Assembly (NCBI RefSeq): GCF_004353825.1
Contig: NZ_SMNA01000004.1
Span: 434,001-498,000, forward strand
Reading direction: 5' to 3'
Length of the DNA stretch: 64,000 nt
From: Occultella glacieicola
GTDB lineage: Bacteria; Actinomycetota; Actinomycetes; Actinomycetales; Beutenbergiaceae
Shown piece after piece: positions 15,001 through 21,000 of this stretch. The position numbers were made by a program. How positions within the stretch are numbered: position 1 is the stretch's first letter; every line of letters starts with the position of its first letter.

Positions 15001-18000
15001 GGCGCTGACCGCCGGGGAGCTGCGCGGGGTGTGGGGCACCCTGCTACTGCCTCTGGAGCCCGACGACGCGATCGACCCCGGCCGCCTCCGCACCGAGGTC
15101 GACTATCTGGCCGGCAGCGACCTGCACGGCGTCTACGCGCACGGCACCGCGGGGGAGTTCCACACGTTGACCGACGACGAGTACGACCAGGTCAACGACA
15201 TCCTCGCCGAGGCGTGCACCGCCGTCGGCAAGCCGTTCCAGCTCGGAGCCAGCCACCCGCTGGCGCACGCGTCTCTCGAGCGGGTGCGCCGCGCCCGCGA
15301 CCTCGGGCCGGCCGCGATCCAGGTGATCCTGCCGGACTGGATCCCGCTCAGCGGGGCCGAGGTGCTGCGCTTCCTCGACCGGGTGGCGAAGGTGGCCGCA
15401 CCCGTCCCACTCGTGCTCTACAGCCCACAGCACGCGAAGACCCAGGTCAGCCCGGACCTGCTCGCGCGCATCGTCGCCGAGGTACCCGCCGTCATCGGCA
15501 TCAAGACGCTGGACCGCGACGACGCCTGGTTCGCGCGGATGCGGGCCCTGGACTGCGCGCTGTTCGTGCCCGGGCACCGGCTCGCCTCCGGCGTCGCCCG
15601 CGGCGCGAGCGGCAGTTACTCCAACATCGCCGCGCTCTCGCCGTATGGTGCGGCCGCGTGGTGGCGGCAGATCGAGACAGACCCCGACGGCGCAACTGAC
15701 GTCGAGCGTCGTATCGCCGAGTTCTTCGCGGCGCACGTTGCGCCCCTGGCCGCCCGCGGGCTCGGCGACCCGGCGCTCGACAAGTTCCTGGCGGCCGTGG
15801 GCGGGTGGGCGGACGTCGGCACCCAGGTGAGGTGGCCGTGGGCGGGTGCCGAGGAGGCGGCGGTGGCGCGGGCTCGGGTGGACGCGCGGGCGCTACTGCC
15901 GGAAGTCCTGATCGGCTGAGCGCGGTATTGGCAGACGCACCTACCCACCGCTGCCACCGACCCAGCCGTCGAGCAGCTCGGACAACTCGGTGCGCTGAGC
16001 ACCCGCCGGTAGCCGCTCCAGCCCCGACCGCAGGATCTGCGCGACCTCCGGGGCCTGTGGCAGGAACCGCCACCGCGTCAGACGCAGCTGGCTTTCGATC
16101 GACTTCCACCGGATCCGACCGTCCGCTGCCGGGACCCACTTGGCCGTGGCGAGCTCGGCATTCATGCGCAGCGCCTCGGCGACCTCGGACGTGAACTGCA
16201 CGGGCCGTCCGGAATCGATCTCCTTGATGACCTCGATCATGCGGTCCTTCGTCATCGGGACCCCTTCCCCGGTCCCCTCCTTCTCCGTGTAGTGGTCGTC
16301 GACGTCGCGTCGCCGGGTCCGCTGGACGATCTTGTACGTGCCGGGCGAGCCCGTCCGGATCGCCTGGTAGCCCTTCACGCCGGAGAACTTCGTTGCGATC
16401 GTGGCGTCGAGCAGCGGGATGAGGGTGGCCACCGGGGTGTCGCGGCGGTCGTGCTCCTCGGTCACCAGTGCCGCCATCGCCCGAGCCTGCTCCCAGGAGC
16501 GGTCCGCGGGGCTCAGGTCCTCGTCGTCGCCGTCCCGGCGCTCGTCGCCGTCGCGTCCCCGGTCGCGCCGGCCGGGCAGCTTCTTCGCGACGTCCAGCAA
16601 CGCGTCCAGGACACGCATGAGCTTGGGGAGGTACTTGCCGATCTTCGCCAGCACCTTGGCCGCCAGTGAGGCACCGCCGGTGAAGATCGCGAGGATGACC
16701 TCCAAGGCGATCGCGCCGACGAGGTAGCCCTTGAAGAACCACTGTTGGTAGGCGTCCGGGTGGTTCCATTTCCGCTTGAAGTCGGCGAACGCACCCTGAC
16801 CCATCGTGACGAGTTCGGCGACGATCCGCTGGGCGTCCTCCAGGGTCAGGCCGACGATCGTGTCGTAGATGTCCGAGATCGCCGCGAACAGGGAACCGTC
16901 GAGGGCACCGCGGATCGTGTCCACGATCCCCGCGGCCAGGTCCCACAGGCCCGTGAGCGTGTCCCAGATGGAGCCGAACAGCCCGGCGACCTGACCGGCG
17001 GTGAAGCCCGCCAGGGTCTTGCCGACGTCGACCGCCGCGTTGATCCAGCCCGGCCGCGAGCCGATGACACCCGAAGCCTGGAGCGCGCGGACGTACGCGG
17101 TCGAGGGGAGCCAGATGTTGTGTCCGGTGAGCACGATCGAGCCGTGGTAGATCGCGAAGTTGTCGATCATCCACGGGTCCAGCCAGGCCTTGAGCGGGTT
17201 CTCCTCCTTGTACTTCTCCGCCGCGTCCCAGTCCACGAACACGCCCTTGCGGCCGCTGTTGGCCACCACCACGGCGGCGGCGAGCGTGGTGTAGTCGTTG
17301 CCGGTCTCGAGCTTCCACAGCCCCCTGTCGACGTACTCGTTCTTCAGGATGGTGGTCAGGTTGTCCTCGGTGATGTGGTGGATCCGCGCCTGGCTGTCCG
17401 GCGGGTCGAGCGCGAGGAAGTCCTTGTTGATCCACCCGACCGGCCCCGAACGAGCGACGACGAAGGAGAAGGCGCCGGTGGTGTCGAGGGCCTGCACCTG
17501 CACGTCGGCGCCGTACCGCACCTTGGCGATGGACGGGAGCGCGCCGTCGGGACGAGCGCGCAGGTTGACACCGGAGTCCCGCGCGATCTCGTACTGGTCC
17601 CCGGGCGCGGAGACCTGCCCGGGCTTGTTGACGCTCTGACCGCGGAACGGGTCGAGCTCGGGCGCATCCGCCCGTTGGACCGGCTGCCCGACCGTCTGGA
17701 TCGTGGCGACGTCGGACCTGCGCTCGGCCACGTGACCGCCCCGGACCGGGAGCGGCCGACCCGGGGGTGGACGACCACCCGGGGCGAGCGCCAGAGCGAC
17801 CGCGCGGTTGCCGGCCGCGCGTTGCAGGGCGGCGATCGAGGCACCGCTGGGTGCCATCGCCGCGGCGGAGGTCGCCGCCGGAGCCGCGCGCCGAGCAGAG
17901 TCGGCGGGGTGCGCACGGTCTGCTCCACCCCGCGCCGACTCGGGCTGTGATGTGCGGGAGGTCCCCATTGCCTCACCCGTTCCCGCCGACAACGGCGGCC

Positions 18001-21000
18001 GGACACCTTCGCCCGGCGAAGGACTCAAGTGTCGTCCGGCCGGTGCCGTCCCGTTCTGCACGATCGGGCAGAGCGCGAGGCACGATCACCTACACGGCCG
18101 GTCTTCGCGCTGTCGGGGCTCTGTTCGCCTCGCGTCAGCGGGCCGCCTGGGCTGACGTCTGCCGGCGGGGTGTGCAGCTGCTTCTCGGCTGATGGTCACG
18201 TGGTTGTCGTGCTCGGCACCGACCTTGGAGACTGGACCGCATGACTGAGGACCGGGCGTTCCCCGAGCACATCTTCGACTCGTTGGGCGTCGACCCGACC
18301 ATGCTTGACGACCGGATCGGCGGCATGATCGGCGTGGCCGTGAAGCGGCCGGCCGACGGGCCGGTCACGGTGATGACGTTGGGAGCCTCGCGGCTGCCCA
18401 CCGACTCCGGTGAGAGCGTCGAACTGGCGGTCGAGGTGGTCGAGGGCCAGGAGGGCGCGGCCCGGATCGCGCTCGGGATCGTCTGCGACGACATGGCCTC
18501 GAACCGGCGGGTGCCCCCGGTGGGTTCGCCGTGGCGCAACGACGCCCCGTTCCTGAAGGGCACCGGGATCTCGGCGATCATGGTCACCCCGTCCCGCTGG
18601 GGTGCCTCCTTCGACGAGGTCCGGTCCGCCGACGGGACCGTGATCGGGCACGTGCGCACCCTGCGCCTGCTCACCGATGTGGAGGCGACGTTCGCCTCGG
18701 CGAAGGGCTGGGAGGCGCTGGTGGCGGCGGCCGGGTCCGTCGATGCGCTGTTGGACGTGACCAGGGCCGACGCCGTCGCCGACCCGGTTGGTGTGGCGGG
18801 CAACGCGCCGGTCTTCCTCTCGAAGCTGCACGCCGAGCACCCGCCCCGCTGGGTCACCTACACCGGCAGGGACCTGCAATCGGTCACCGGTCTGGAGTCC
18901 GATGAGTACATGAACGACTCCGCGAACCACGAGGTGTGGTCGGTCGACTCGTTCGTCGCCCGGTTCCCGTGGGTCGCGGGCTTCGTGCGGGAGGCCAGGC
19001 CGGGGCAGACGGCGTTGTTCACCGACGGGTCCGGGGCGTACGTGCTGGAGGACGACTAGGAGGCCGCAGCACACGGGGATGCCGGCACGGTGTGCGGCTC
19101 ATCCGCGTGGGTGTACCGGACCTCATGGGGTCGGCAGAGGGCGGTCGGCCTGCGCTGACCTCAAGCCGGCGCGGGTCTGCGCGTGGCGCAGGAGGAAAGC
19201 CCGCTCGTCGAGCTTCTTGCGTCGCAGCCAGGAGACGACCTCGGAGTTGCACTTGCTGGCGTTGCAGGGCCCGCACGCCGGCACCACGTTGTCGGCGGTG
19301 TACCGGCCGCCGCGCGAGATCGGGAGGATGCAGTCCCGCTGGAGCGGGCGGTCGGTCGCACCGCAGTAGGCGCAGCCGCCCCACGCGGCCCGCAGGGCAT
19401 CCCATTGCAGCTCGGTGAGGTCGTTGTCGACCCGAGCGAGGCGGCGCCGTCGGCGGCGGGCGTACCGCAGCCGGCGGGTTGTGCTGGCCATCCCAGGAGC
19501 CTATGAGTCACGACTCCTTCGAGGCTGACGCCACGCGTGGGCCACCCTGAGGAACTCGGCGGCGACGACCCGGGCGAACCCGACCCCGGGTCGCGCCGGG
19601 GGCCACCGTCATGGCCCATGACGCCAACGGCGGTGGGCGACCGGATGCACCCGGGCCGCCCACCGCCGTCGTTCACTCCTCAGAAGACGAGGTCAGCACA
19701 CGCGCCACGCGGTCAGGCCGGGTTCTCCGCGCGCTTGGGCAGCACCCAGCCGGCCCGCGGGAAGTGGCAGGTGTAGCCGTTCGGGATCTTGACCAGGTAG
19801 TCCTGGTGCTCCGGTTCGGCCTCCCAGAACGGGCCCGCCGGCTCGATCGTGGTGACCGCCTTGCCGGGCCAGAGCCCGGAGGCGTCGACGTCGGCGATCG
19901 TGTCCCGGGCGACCTGCTCCTGCTCCGGGGTGACCGGGAAGATCGCCGACCGGTAGCTGGTGCCGATGTCGTTGCCCTGCCGGTTCAGCGTCGACGGGTC
20001 GTGCACCTGGAAGAAGAACGCCAGGATGTCCCGGTAGGTGGTGCTGGCCGGGTCGAAGACGACCTCGAGGGCCTCGGCGTGGCCGGGGTGATGGCGGTAG
20101 GTGGCGTGGTCGTTCGCACCGCCGGTGTAGCCGACCCGCGTCGCCAGCACGCCCGGCTGGCGGCGGATCAGGTCCTCCATGCCCCAGAAACACCCGCCGG
20201 CCAGCACGGCCGTCTCGGTGCCCGGGGTGCGGGTGATCTGTCCGGTGTCCTGGATTCCGCTGGTCATGATGCGTGCTCCTCTGGGGTGGTGTCGGATGTC
20301 TCGAACAGTGACCGGTACTCGCCGTAGCCCTGCGCCTCGAGCTCGGCGGCCGGGACGAACCGTAGCGCGGCCGAGTTCATGCAGTAGCGCTGCCCGCCCG
20401 CGTCCCGGGGTCCATCATCGAACAGGTGACCCAGGTGGCTGTCCGCTCCGGCGGAGCGCACCTCGGTGCGGGTCATCCACAGGGACCGGTCGGTCTCGGT
20501 GTGCACGGCGTCGGCTGCGATCGGCCGGGTGAAGCTCGGCCATCCGGTGCCGCTGTCGTACTTGTCGGTGGACGAGAACAAGGGCTGGCCGGAGACCACG
20601 TCCACGTAGATGCCGGGCTCGTGGTTGTCCCAGTACTCGTTGTGGAACGCCGGCTCGGTCCCGTCCTTCTGGGTGACGCGGAACTGGCTGCGGGTGAGGC
20701 GGCTGAGGGCCTCGGGGGTCTTGCGGTACTCGTGTGACACGATCTCTCCTCATCTGACGTCGCTGGCTGCGGCGTCACAGGGGTCAACACAGCGGGGTCC
20801 CGTTTTGGTCCCGGGGGCGGCCACGCGCTTCCGCGGAAGCGCCCGTGAACTAGCACCCGGGGCGTTGACCTCGCACCCGGCGGAGGTTCGAGGTCAGTGC
20901 GTCTGGTGCTATCTCGCCGGGGAGGAGGGTGGTCAGGAGAGGGCCTACGAGAAGTGGATCCCGCCGTTCAGGTCGAGCACCGTCCCGGTCACGAACGAGG

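What a model noticed while it worked through the whole genome (the two positions that open the first line are those of the whole stretch)
15941..19059. A ten-residue N-terminal tag (LQRTAGNRAV) marks five scattered, family-less proteins as candidate cargo of the classical [...]
Five proteins without any family in their N-terminal parts, encoded far from each other and from both CIS loci, carry the same motif L-Q-[RGA]-[TA]-A-G-N-R-A-V within their first 60 residues: g03160 (C18:449941-451857, 638 aa), g00355 (C3:51665-52663), g00359 (C3:54739-56067), g02660 (C17:422864-423598, with an HEFGH zincin motif) and g04664 (C22:217380-220580, 1066 aa, C-terminal VanY D-Ala-D-Ala carboxypeptidase domain). 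A variant (LQRTVGNAGV) stands in g01200, the DUF4157/eCIS_core protein inside the classical eCIS locus C11:165-189 kb. DUF4157 is the published marker of eCIS-associated toxins; here the motif that precedes it occurs without the DUF4157 domain. I propose that the short mot [...]
Evidence so far: Regex scan of all 4,853 proteins for L[QH]x(1-5)GNxA in the first 150 residues: 7 hits, 5 with the full LQxxAGNRAV, 2 (SecA, UPF0047) unrelated; g01200 shows LQRTVGNAGV followed by the HELTH DUF4157 core. None of the five lies within 10 genes of a CIS gene. Homologue search with g03160: 62 proteins, 30 of the 61 others carry PF13699 (DUF4157), many with C-terminal toxin domains (EndoU PF14436, PF15541, PF15529, PF15533, RNase PF18431, deaminase PF14440) from cyanobacteria, Bacteroidota and others. 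Motif scan of those 61: the six closest, which lack DUF4157, all have LQ[RG][ST][AV]GNR[AG][VL] at aa 42-52; 3 of the 30 DUF4157-bearing ones have it too, 27 do not; 1 further hit is a chance match [...]
(Added by a program. Inside this text positions count along the whole contig: contig position 434,001 is position 1 of the stretch shown here. "Call 12" and the like, gene names such as g00115 and contig names such as C1 are that model's own, and its searches are not shown. The text may have been shortened before it was handed on; [...] marks where a part breaks off. The agent that wrote the report below was given it as the finding of a first reader that could run no searches.)

Follow-up and report, generated by a model that had tools for sequence, protein, structure and literature searches.

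The report
Shared address tag on injector cargo
Many otherwise unrelated toxin-like proteins of soil bacteria begin with the same short peptide tag, found almost only in microbes that own one type of phage-tail-like injection machine, so the tag is probably the address label that gets them loaded into that machine.

Summary
Confirmed and larger than reported. The tag is a ~20-residue helix-GN-helix, [VLI]LxLQRxAGNxAVxxLL, about 35-55 residues from the start and usually followed by [VL][QAS]R. This genome has 11 copies: the Sle2-like DUF4157 protein of the class IId-type eCIS locus, nine scattered intact genes with unrelated C-termini, and one gene cut by an IS256. It is no Pfam, NCBIfam or PDB family, yet 4,272 protein clusters match. 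Tagged genomes nearly always have a CIS marker gene: 18/19 (order), 60/60 (Streptomyces), 13/13 (Chloroflexota); 1 of 428 marker-negative genomes has it. It follows one AAA+ ATPase clade and marks Sle1- and Sle2-type proteins and the published toxin EAT11. Independently, a palindrome (TGCCC-N4-GGGCA) learned from other genomes' CIS genes lies upstream of the window gene and of many orphan tagged genes. Best reading: a sequence-conserved loading address for a dispersed effector arsenal of class IId eCIS. The papers read say eCIS loading signals are not conserved. No earlier scan note on it was found.

The parts
15941..17968 (-).
   Evidence: ORF; homologues with swapped N-terminal modules and variable toxin tips; absent from three congeners
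17846..17968 (-). Hydrophilic, predicted disordered leader (aa 1-41); no hydrophobic signal peptide
   Evidence: pLDDT under 50; GRAVY -0.66
17786..17845 (-). The tag: helix-GN-helix (aa 42-61); core LQRAAGNRAV at 17798-17827
   Evidence: helices 42-52 and 55-61 in the model, low confidence
17672..17680 (-). VQR element (aa 97-99) at the border between leader and folded body
   Evidence: enriched after the tag 62/113 vs 5/58 control windows
17408..17575 (-). Bacterial SH3-like domain (aa 132-187)
   Evidence: Pfam SH3_3 E 2e-4, under cut-off; weak SH3 fold hits
16286..17656 (-). Conserved carrier body (aa 105-561) shared with DUF4157 toxins of other phyla; hydrophobic helices at aa 406-446 (16631-16753)
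15944..16285 (-). Variable C-terminal tip (aa 562-675), no family; sits where homologues carry EndoU, RNase, deaminase or other toxin domains
18055..18072 (.). Palindromic operator-like site (17.5 bits), 104 nt before the start; same motif precedes the CIS sheath and Sle2-like genes
   Evidence: matrix from other genomes; scan
18241..19059 (+). Divergent SuFu-like gene, candidate immunity protein; present and absent together with the tagged gene
   Evidence: Pfam SUFU 24.9 bits, cut-off 25; absent from three congeners; Imm-SuFu listed as immunity family in PMC3482391

Best explanation
The motif is the sequence-conserved core of the N-terminal loading address of class IId (SLP/CIS-Sc-type) contractile injection systems. 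Cargo genes are scattered through the genome, are switched on with the CIS operon through a shared palindromic operator (probably bound by the locus's LuxR/SlpR-like regulator), and make proteins of the form: disordered 30-50-residue leader, helix-GN-helix tag, [VL][QAS]R border, then an exchangeable body with or without DUF4157. The CIS AAA+ ATPase most likely recognises the leader through the tag, unfolds the protein and threads it into the tube. Shown here: the motif, its position, the modular bodies, the co-occurrence with one CIS type and the upstream palindrome. Inferred: loading, the ATPase as reader, the regulator as binder, toxicity of the bodies. I put about 0.92 on 'marks proteins of the CIS', about 0.75 on 'is a loading address' and 0.55 on this full version.
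For: Co-occurrence: tag at E<=1e-3 in 19 of 301 genomes of the order, 18 of them with Pvc16_N (48 of 301); Streptomyces 60 of 121, all 60 among the 80 with Pvc16_N, 0 of 41 without; Chloroflexota 13 of 171, all 13 among the 37 with a gp19 tube, 0 of 134 without. All 15 loci with an in-locus tag fall in one 18-row ATPase clade, SH-aLRT 99; 14 of 14 Tme-type Streptomyces loci lack the tag, 6 of 6 IId-type loci have it. 68 of 75 Sle2-like proteins carry it, and so does the long helical Sle1-like family beside them, while long surface and Hsp70-like neighbours do not. EAT11 and predicted EATs of Streptomyces, Paenibacillus, Methanosarcina and Methanomethylovorans carry it. Position: median residue 35, 134 of 149 between 20 and 70. 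Bodies differ: only 6 of 75 tagged ORFs have eCIS_core, 55 have no Pfam family, the rest include ART, PLD, endonuclease, M35, M15 and PG-binding domains; 65 of 75 loci have no CIS core gene within 2.5 kb. Palindrome: orphans of this genome 5 of 10 at >=10 bits against 67 of 4,663 genes; orphans elsewhere 12 of 64 at >=14 bits against 0 of 303 control windows; 13 of 14 tag-positive against 4 of 39 tag-negative CIS loci. In AlgoCIS the N-terminal region is needed for loading, DUF4157 is not, and the AAA+ is required (10.64898/2026.05.27.728243).
Against: No tagged protein has been shown in a particle by anything I could read; the one proven IId cargo, S. lividans Sle1, could not be retrieved. 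EAT11 is proven toxic, not proven loaded, and is 1 of 22 validated rows. Three loci of the same ATPase clade have DUF4157 cargo that start with VQR and lack the tag, so the clade can do without it; the branch holding only tagged loci is unresolved (support 16). 20 of 55 body homologues show neither tag nor DUF4157. One complete genome (G299) has two tagged genes and the palindrome but no Pvc16_N or gp19; three further Pvc16-negative genomes had single weak hits (E 0.004-0.009) that I left out. Five of the 10 orphans here and 48 of 64 elsewhere score under 10 bits for the palindrome. Mass spectrometry of S. coelicolor particles named only Sco4242, Sco4256 and Sco4251 as unknown components in the passages read. 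Kin are not independent, so the Fisher p-values overstate.
Confidence: 0.55

Rival explanations
1. The tag is a loading address, but its reader is the small Sle2-like DUF4157 protein or the tube initiator, or tags pair with each other; orphan cargo ride on the single Sle2-like adaptor.
For: Sle2 binds the N-terminal region of Sle1 and the tube initiator SlpT2 (PMC13277306). The tag is well ordered next to DUF4157 in the Sle2-like model (pLDDT 82-85) but not in the orphan. This genome has exactly one DUF4157 gene for ten orphans. Q, R, G and N of the tag are invariant in 68 Sle2-like proteins chosen for carrying it.
Against: Many Streptomyces IId loci have no small Sle2 but tagged DUF4157 toxins; DUF4157 is dispensable for loading in AlgoCIS; the higher pLDDT may only reflect alignment depth.
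Confidence: 0.2
2. The leader is a pro-peptide: the tag keeps the body inactive or unfolded, and the [VL][QAS]R element is a cut site for the DUF4157 metallopeptidase acting in trans.
For: x[QAS]R follows the tag in 109 of 124 proteins against 10 of 59 control windows and marks the border to the variable body; DUF4157 was predicted to be an autoproteolytic release peptidase (PMC3482391); most orphans lack an evident immunity neighbour.
Against: No cleavage data seen; the distance from tag to QR varies from 10 to over 50 residues; Sle2-like proteins repeat VQR in an acidic tail with no body to release.
Confidence: 0.1
3. The proteins belong to the CIS regulon but are not loaded: they act in the cytoplasm or after lysis during CIS-linked cell death, and the tag is a degron or chaperone site that controls them.
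For: Class IId particles are cytoplasmic and linked to cell death in Streptomyces (PMC12237407; PMC10020575); the shared palindrome explains co-occurrence without loading; some tagged bodies exceed 1,000 residues and some are Hcp-like.
Against: The same tag is on Sle1-type proteins, a class shown to be packaged, and the tag persists in lineages where the palindrome was not found; cell-wall and membrane-acting bodies fit delivery better.
Confidence: 0.1
4. The tag serves another export route (type VII secretion, or the divergent second sheath locus on C5), or is a chance or compositional motif.
For: A WXG100-like cluster lies 4 kb from the window gene; the C5 sheath has the same palindrome upstream.
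Against: 1 of 428 CIS-negative genomes carries the tag; the C5 sheath was not found at E<=1e-40 in 300 other genomes, among them all 18 other tag-positive ones; shuffles and reversed controls give nothing comparable.
Confidence: 0.05

Closest known systems
N-terminal loading sequences of eCIS cargo (AlgoCIS Cgo1/Cgo2; PVC Pdp1/Pnf; Afp18)
   Same: N-terminal, hydrophilic, disordered leader upstream of an optional DUF4157 and a variable body; an AAA+ ATPase in the locus.
   Different: Those are reported as not conserved in sequence and were studied on genes in or beside the locus; this one has a fixed 20-residue core over thousands of proteins in several phyla and marks scattered genes. It is absent from Afp18, Pdp1, Pne1 and the other proteobacterial rows as far as shown (first 400 residues, read by eye). 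Function is untested here.
Sle1/Sle2 cargo pair of Streptomyces lividans SLP (PMC13277306)
   Same: Small DUF4157 protein just before the sheath, often with a long helical partner of variable C-terminus; both types carry the tag in the loci examined.
   Different: The paper's sections read name no shared motif and no orphan cargo; this genome has the Sle2-like gene but no in-locus Sle1. The S. lividans sequences themselves were not obtained.
DUF4157 / eCIS_core (PF13699, PVC-metallopeptidase) toxins, e.g. EAT11
   Same: Constant N-terminal part with exchangeable toxin C-termini; the tag often precedes DUF4157.
   Different: The tag lies outside the Pfam model and 69 of 75 tagged ORFs sampled lack DUF4157.
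Class IId eCIS (CIS-Sc of S. coelicolor)
   Same: Pvc16_N, AAA+, LuxR regulator, Sco4256-like membrane protein, Cys-rich fibre with membrane helix and carbohydrate-type C-terminus.
   Different: This locus also has a PAAR gene, reported absent from SLP; class assigned by gene content only.
Effector marker motifs of other secretion systems (T6SS MIX/FIX, T7SS YxxxD/E; recalled, from no call)
   Same: Short conserved N- or C-terminal mark that defines a dispersed effector repertoire.
   Different: Different sequence and machine; no comparison was run.

Membership tests
eCIS cargo loading sequence | N-terminal, hydrophilic, disordered, no Sec/Tat-type hydrophobic core | tested here: met
   Tag at residues 33-57 in 10 of 10 intact proteins; leader GRAVY negative in 9 of 10; no hydrophobic stretch; low pLDDT
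eCIS cargo loading sequence | Genetic link to an eCIS with AAA+ ATPase | tested here: met
eCIS cargo loading sequence | Needed and sufficient for loading into the tube | not testable with these tools
   needs particle proteomics and fusions
eCIS cargo loading sequence | Present on a cargo proven to be packaged (S. lividans Sle1) | tested here: inconclusive
   Sle1 not retrieved; Sle1-type proteins by synteny and helical build carry it
DUF4157 / eCIS_core toxin | PF13699 domain in the protein | tested here: not met
   absent from the window protein and the other orphans; one copy in the genome
Class IId eCIS (host locus C11) | Pvc16_N, AAA+, sheath, two gp19 tubes, spike, baseplate | tested here: met
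Class IId eCIS (host locus C11) | Sco4256-like and Sco4242-like proteins as described in PMC10020575 | tested here: met
   by architecture only: Ig-like domain plus membrane helix; Cys4, membrane helix, discoidin-type domain
Class IId eCIS (host locus C11) | Placement with reference IId sequences in a tree | not tested
   no S. coelicolor or dbeCIS reference sequences were on hand
Polymorphic toxin (window protein) | Constant body with exchangeable C-terminal tip | tested here: met
Polymorphic toxin (window protein) | Toxic tip with cognate immunity gene directly downstream | tested here: inconclusive
   tip has no family; SuFu-like gene is upstream and divergent
Known protein family for the tag | Match to Pfam, NCBIfam or a solved structure | tested here: not met
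   123 members scanned; best E 0.019 (Pfam), 0.077 (NCBIfam), 0.088 (PDB)

The most novel reading that the evidence does not exclude
Class IId contractile injection systems, whose cargo is largely unknown, draw on a genome-wide arsenal of up to dozens of exchangeable effectors (27 in one genome), all addressed by one conserved 20-residue tag shared by Actinomycetota, Chloroflexota, Bacillota and methanogenic archaea and, in actinomycetes, co-regulated through one operator. It would be the first sequence-defined eCIS loading signal and a key to thousands of uncharacterised effectors.
Probability: 0.6. Interest if true: 0.92.

Novelty: new variant of a known kind. Interest (0 to 1): 0.85.

Why it matters
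How eCIS pick their cargo is an open question, and recent papers state that no conserved loading sequence was found. For the class IId systems of Streptomyces and relatives, hardly any effector is known. A short conserved tag makes the question testable with three point mutations and one fusion, predicts effectors far from the locus that neighbourhood- and DUF4157-based methods cannot see, and opens a set of at least 4,272 protein clusters, most without any family, as candidate antimicrobial or developmental effectors. The upstream palindrome gives a second, independent handle on the regulon.

Tried and rejected
Complex prediction of the ATPase with the tag gave no verdict (score 0.00, controls not run); it is no evidence either way. 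S. lividans Sle1 could not be located through its published antigen peptide: 0 hits in two collection scans and in 301 Streptomyces genomes. Fold searches of the Sle2-like and the window models gave nothing at E<=0.001. The Atlas gave unnamed actinobacterial clusters for the tag region and nothing usable for the tip. The sheath tree did not finish and the ATPase tree is the quick one. A DNA repeat as origin of the motif is rejected (codons differ). The second sheath locus as partner is rejected. Nine of 122 pattern hits were dropped by eye as chance or fragmentary before building the profile (L012, L051, L065, L082, L088, L103, L117, L120, L123). Three look-ups in the scan's earlier findings gave nothing on this motif. 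Literature string searches: six motif spellings, 0 papers; four spellings of the palindrome, one unrelated methods paper by listing.
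Full report
1. Observation. The genome was laid out and all 74,698 six-frame ORFs were scanned. Looser searches add five copies: C18:400517 (nuclease-like RFHLL motif), C23:153861 (NCWE motif, papain-like by my reading), C1:97634 (Endonuclea_NS_2), C18:125216, and C17:2840, which is cut just after LQRAAGNRA by a Mutator-family transposase with matching inverted ends. A relaxed regex gives 9 hits against 0,0,0,0,1 in shuffles and the codons differ. The final profile separates 11 copies (25-35 bits) from the rest (9.8) and from reversed sequence (9.0).

2. The window gene. It runs 17968-15941 on the minus strand (675 aa): leader 1-41, tag 42-61, VQR 97-99, a conserved body 105-561 with an SH3-like domain and hydrophobic helices, and a 114-residue tip without family. 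Fifty-five homologues share the body and differ at both ends; tips include EndoU, RNase and deaminase families, and the N-terminal module is tag only in 7, tag plus DUF4157 in 3, DUF4157 only in 25, neither in 20. The gene and the divergent SuFu-like gene are missing from three congeners, where synteny ends at the upstream aldolase-like gene's stop.

3. The tag at large. After dropping 9 by eye, positions not fixed by the pattern are conserved too: [LV]-3, L-2, R+2, L+12, [LVI]+13; VQR-like words follow in 62 of 113 against 5 of 58 control windows. The profile matches no Pfam, NCBIfam or PDB entry but 4,272 of 1.84 billion cluster representatives at E<=0.001; in the best 150 the tag sits at median residue 35. 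Models show helix, break at G-N, helix. Of 75 tagged ORFs, 6 have eCIS_core, 55 no family, the rest diverse enzyme or wall-binding domains; 10 of 75 loci have a CIS core gene within 2.5 kb. One genome holds 27 copies.

4. Link to CIS. Family: strict pattern 7 of 29, all among 13 with Pvc16_N. Order: 19 of 301 at E<=1e-3, 18 with Pvc16_N; three more single hits at E 0.004-0.009, all in Pvc16-negative genomes, were left out, and only 25 candidates per genome were scored. Streptomyces: 60 of 121, all with Pvc16_N; 0 of 41 without. Chloroflexota: 13 of 171, all with a gp19 tube; 0 of 134 without; one of the 13 (G759) is an unpublished genome, and the centres G307 and G310 were chosen for carrying the tag. 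The exception G299 has neither Pvc16_N nor gp19. The converse does not hold: 30 of 48, 20 of 80 and 24 of 37 marker-positive genomes lack the tag. The split is by CIS type. In a quick ATPase tree of 42 rows the 15 loci with an in-locus tag lie in one 18-row clade (99); the other three rows have DUF4157 cargo starting with VQR only. In Streptomyces, 14 fetched loci with a 2,080-2,290-residue DUF4157 protein (Tme-type by arrangement; 11 from tag-negative genomes) lack the tag and 6 of 6 loci of the other type have it. That type matches class IId as described in PMC10020575 by gene content. In 80 related loci, 68 of 75 Sle2-like proteins and the long helical Sle1-like family carry the tag; long surface and Hsp70-like neighbours do not. 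The closest named Sle2-like relatives are from Occultella (79-80%).

5. A second, independent signal. Upstream regions of the tagged genes share TGCCCGATCG. A matrix learned de novo, with palindromy imposed, from 117 upstream regions of sheath and Sle2-like genes of other genomes gives GCTGCCCGATCGGGCAGC. It scores 17.5 bits at window 18055-18072, 104 nt before the revised start. Five of 10 orphans reach 10 bits (67 of 4,663 genes do) and 3 reach 14 (15 of 4,663); five of the 26 best genomic sites lie in or at the edge of the C11 locus. Elsewhere 12 of 64 orphans reach 14 bits against 0 of 303 control windows; Solirubrobacteraceae and Chloroflexota mostly lack it. It occurs in 13 of 14 tag-positive and 4 of 39 tag-negative CIS loci of the order, and in 3 of 6 Streptomyces IId-type loci. 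The binder is inferred to be the locus LuxR, because SlpR/SCO4263 is LuxR-type and needed for particle production (PMC8505568); the neighbouring BTAD regulator is an alternative. The same site precedes a divergent sheath at the end of contig C5, which is not found in 300 other genomes.

6. Mechanism. AlgoCIS needs the disordered N-terminal region and the AAA+ ATPase for loading, not DUF4157, and the authors propose a system-specific signal read by the ATPase. The tag has that position and context and follows an ATPase clade, so I infer that it is the recognised core of such a signal for class IId systems. The steps loading, reader and toxicity are not shown. Rivals: Sle2-like adaptor as reader (Sle2 binds the Sle1 N-terminal region), pro-peptide with cleavage at QR, regulon member not loaded, other route.

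7. Literature. Seen: 10.64898/2026.05.27.728243 passages and section 12 (supplements closed); PMC11297309 passages and three supplement searches: EAT11 carries LQRTAGNAAV, 1 of 22 validated rows; the ten predicted rows shown all have DUF4157; the text says no conserved signal was detected. PMC13277306 passages, sections 5, 10, 12, 15, 24 and the first part of its spreadsheet; its supplementary PDF was too large to read and may show alignments of these N-termini. Passages only: PMC11126660, PMC3482391 (end of text and figures not held), PMC8213781, 10.1101/2022.08.10.503483 (76), PMC12237407, PMC10286715, PMC8505568, PMC10020575. Searches. None names the motif or the palindrome; subscription papers and figures are outside the library, so absence from print is likely, not certain.

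8. Verdict. Real, widespread, tied to one CIS type by three kinds of evidence, and apparently undescribed. New variant of a known kind (eCIS loading sequence), distinguished by sequence conservation and a dispersed arsenal. Interest 0.85.

Noticed in passing
L304:1-3080 (G000 C5, contig end): Divergent sheath (Phage_sheath_1C only), a 126-aa tube-sized gene and a chaperone-like gene with the same palindrome upstream; no second baseplate found; not found in 300 genomes of the order.
   Followed up: partly
L016:2501-2944, L044, L063, L066: Small tagged proteins with an Hcp-like body (PF05638 hit in L016) in Solirubrobacteraceae-like genomes; a tube-fold protein bearing the cargo tag is unexplained.
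   Followed up: no
L306:6327-8393 (G000 C23:180323-182392): Orphan paralogue of the Sco4256-like protein with Zn-ribbon and membrane helix, palindrome upstream (16.6 bits), followed by an M23 peptidase gene.
   Followed up: partly
L305:6083-8062 (G000 C21:178082): Best palindrome of the genome (24.5 bits) precedes a secreted-looking DUF7507 protein without the tag; a DUF11/PD40 surface protein in the CIS locus has the second best.
   Followed up: no
L002:16900-17015 and Sle2-like alignment A3: Sle2-like proteins end in acidic repeats of VQR-E(n); role unknown.
   Followed up: no
L133, L136, L138, L226, L227 between ATPase and Sle2-like gene: Hsp70-like genes recur inside class IId-type loci.
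   Followed up: no
window 21995-23408: Three-gene WXG100-like cluster (weak TIGR03930 hits), type VII substrate type, 4 kb from the tagged gene.
   Followed up: no
window 19123-19491: Small HNH endonuclease gene beside the SuFu-like gene; a homologue lies elsewhere in one congener.
   Followed up: no
L185:9731-10093 (G299): Two divergent tagged genes share one palindrome in a complete genome with no CIS marker found: possible relic or cheater.
   Followed up: partly
L001:6724-7116, L004:5465-5851, L007:4860-5984: Family-less genes directly downstream of three tagged genes; candidate immunity proteins.
   Followed up: partly
P0056-P0065: Some proteins carry two or three tandem copies of the tag.
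   Followed up: no
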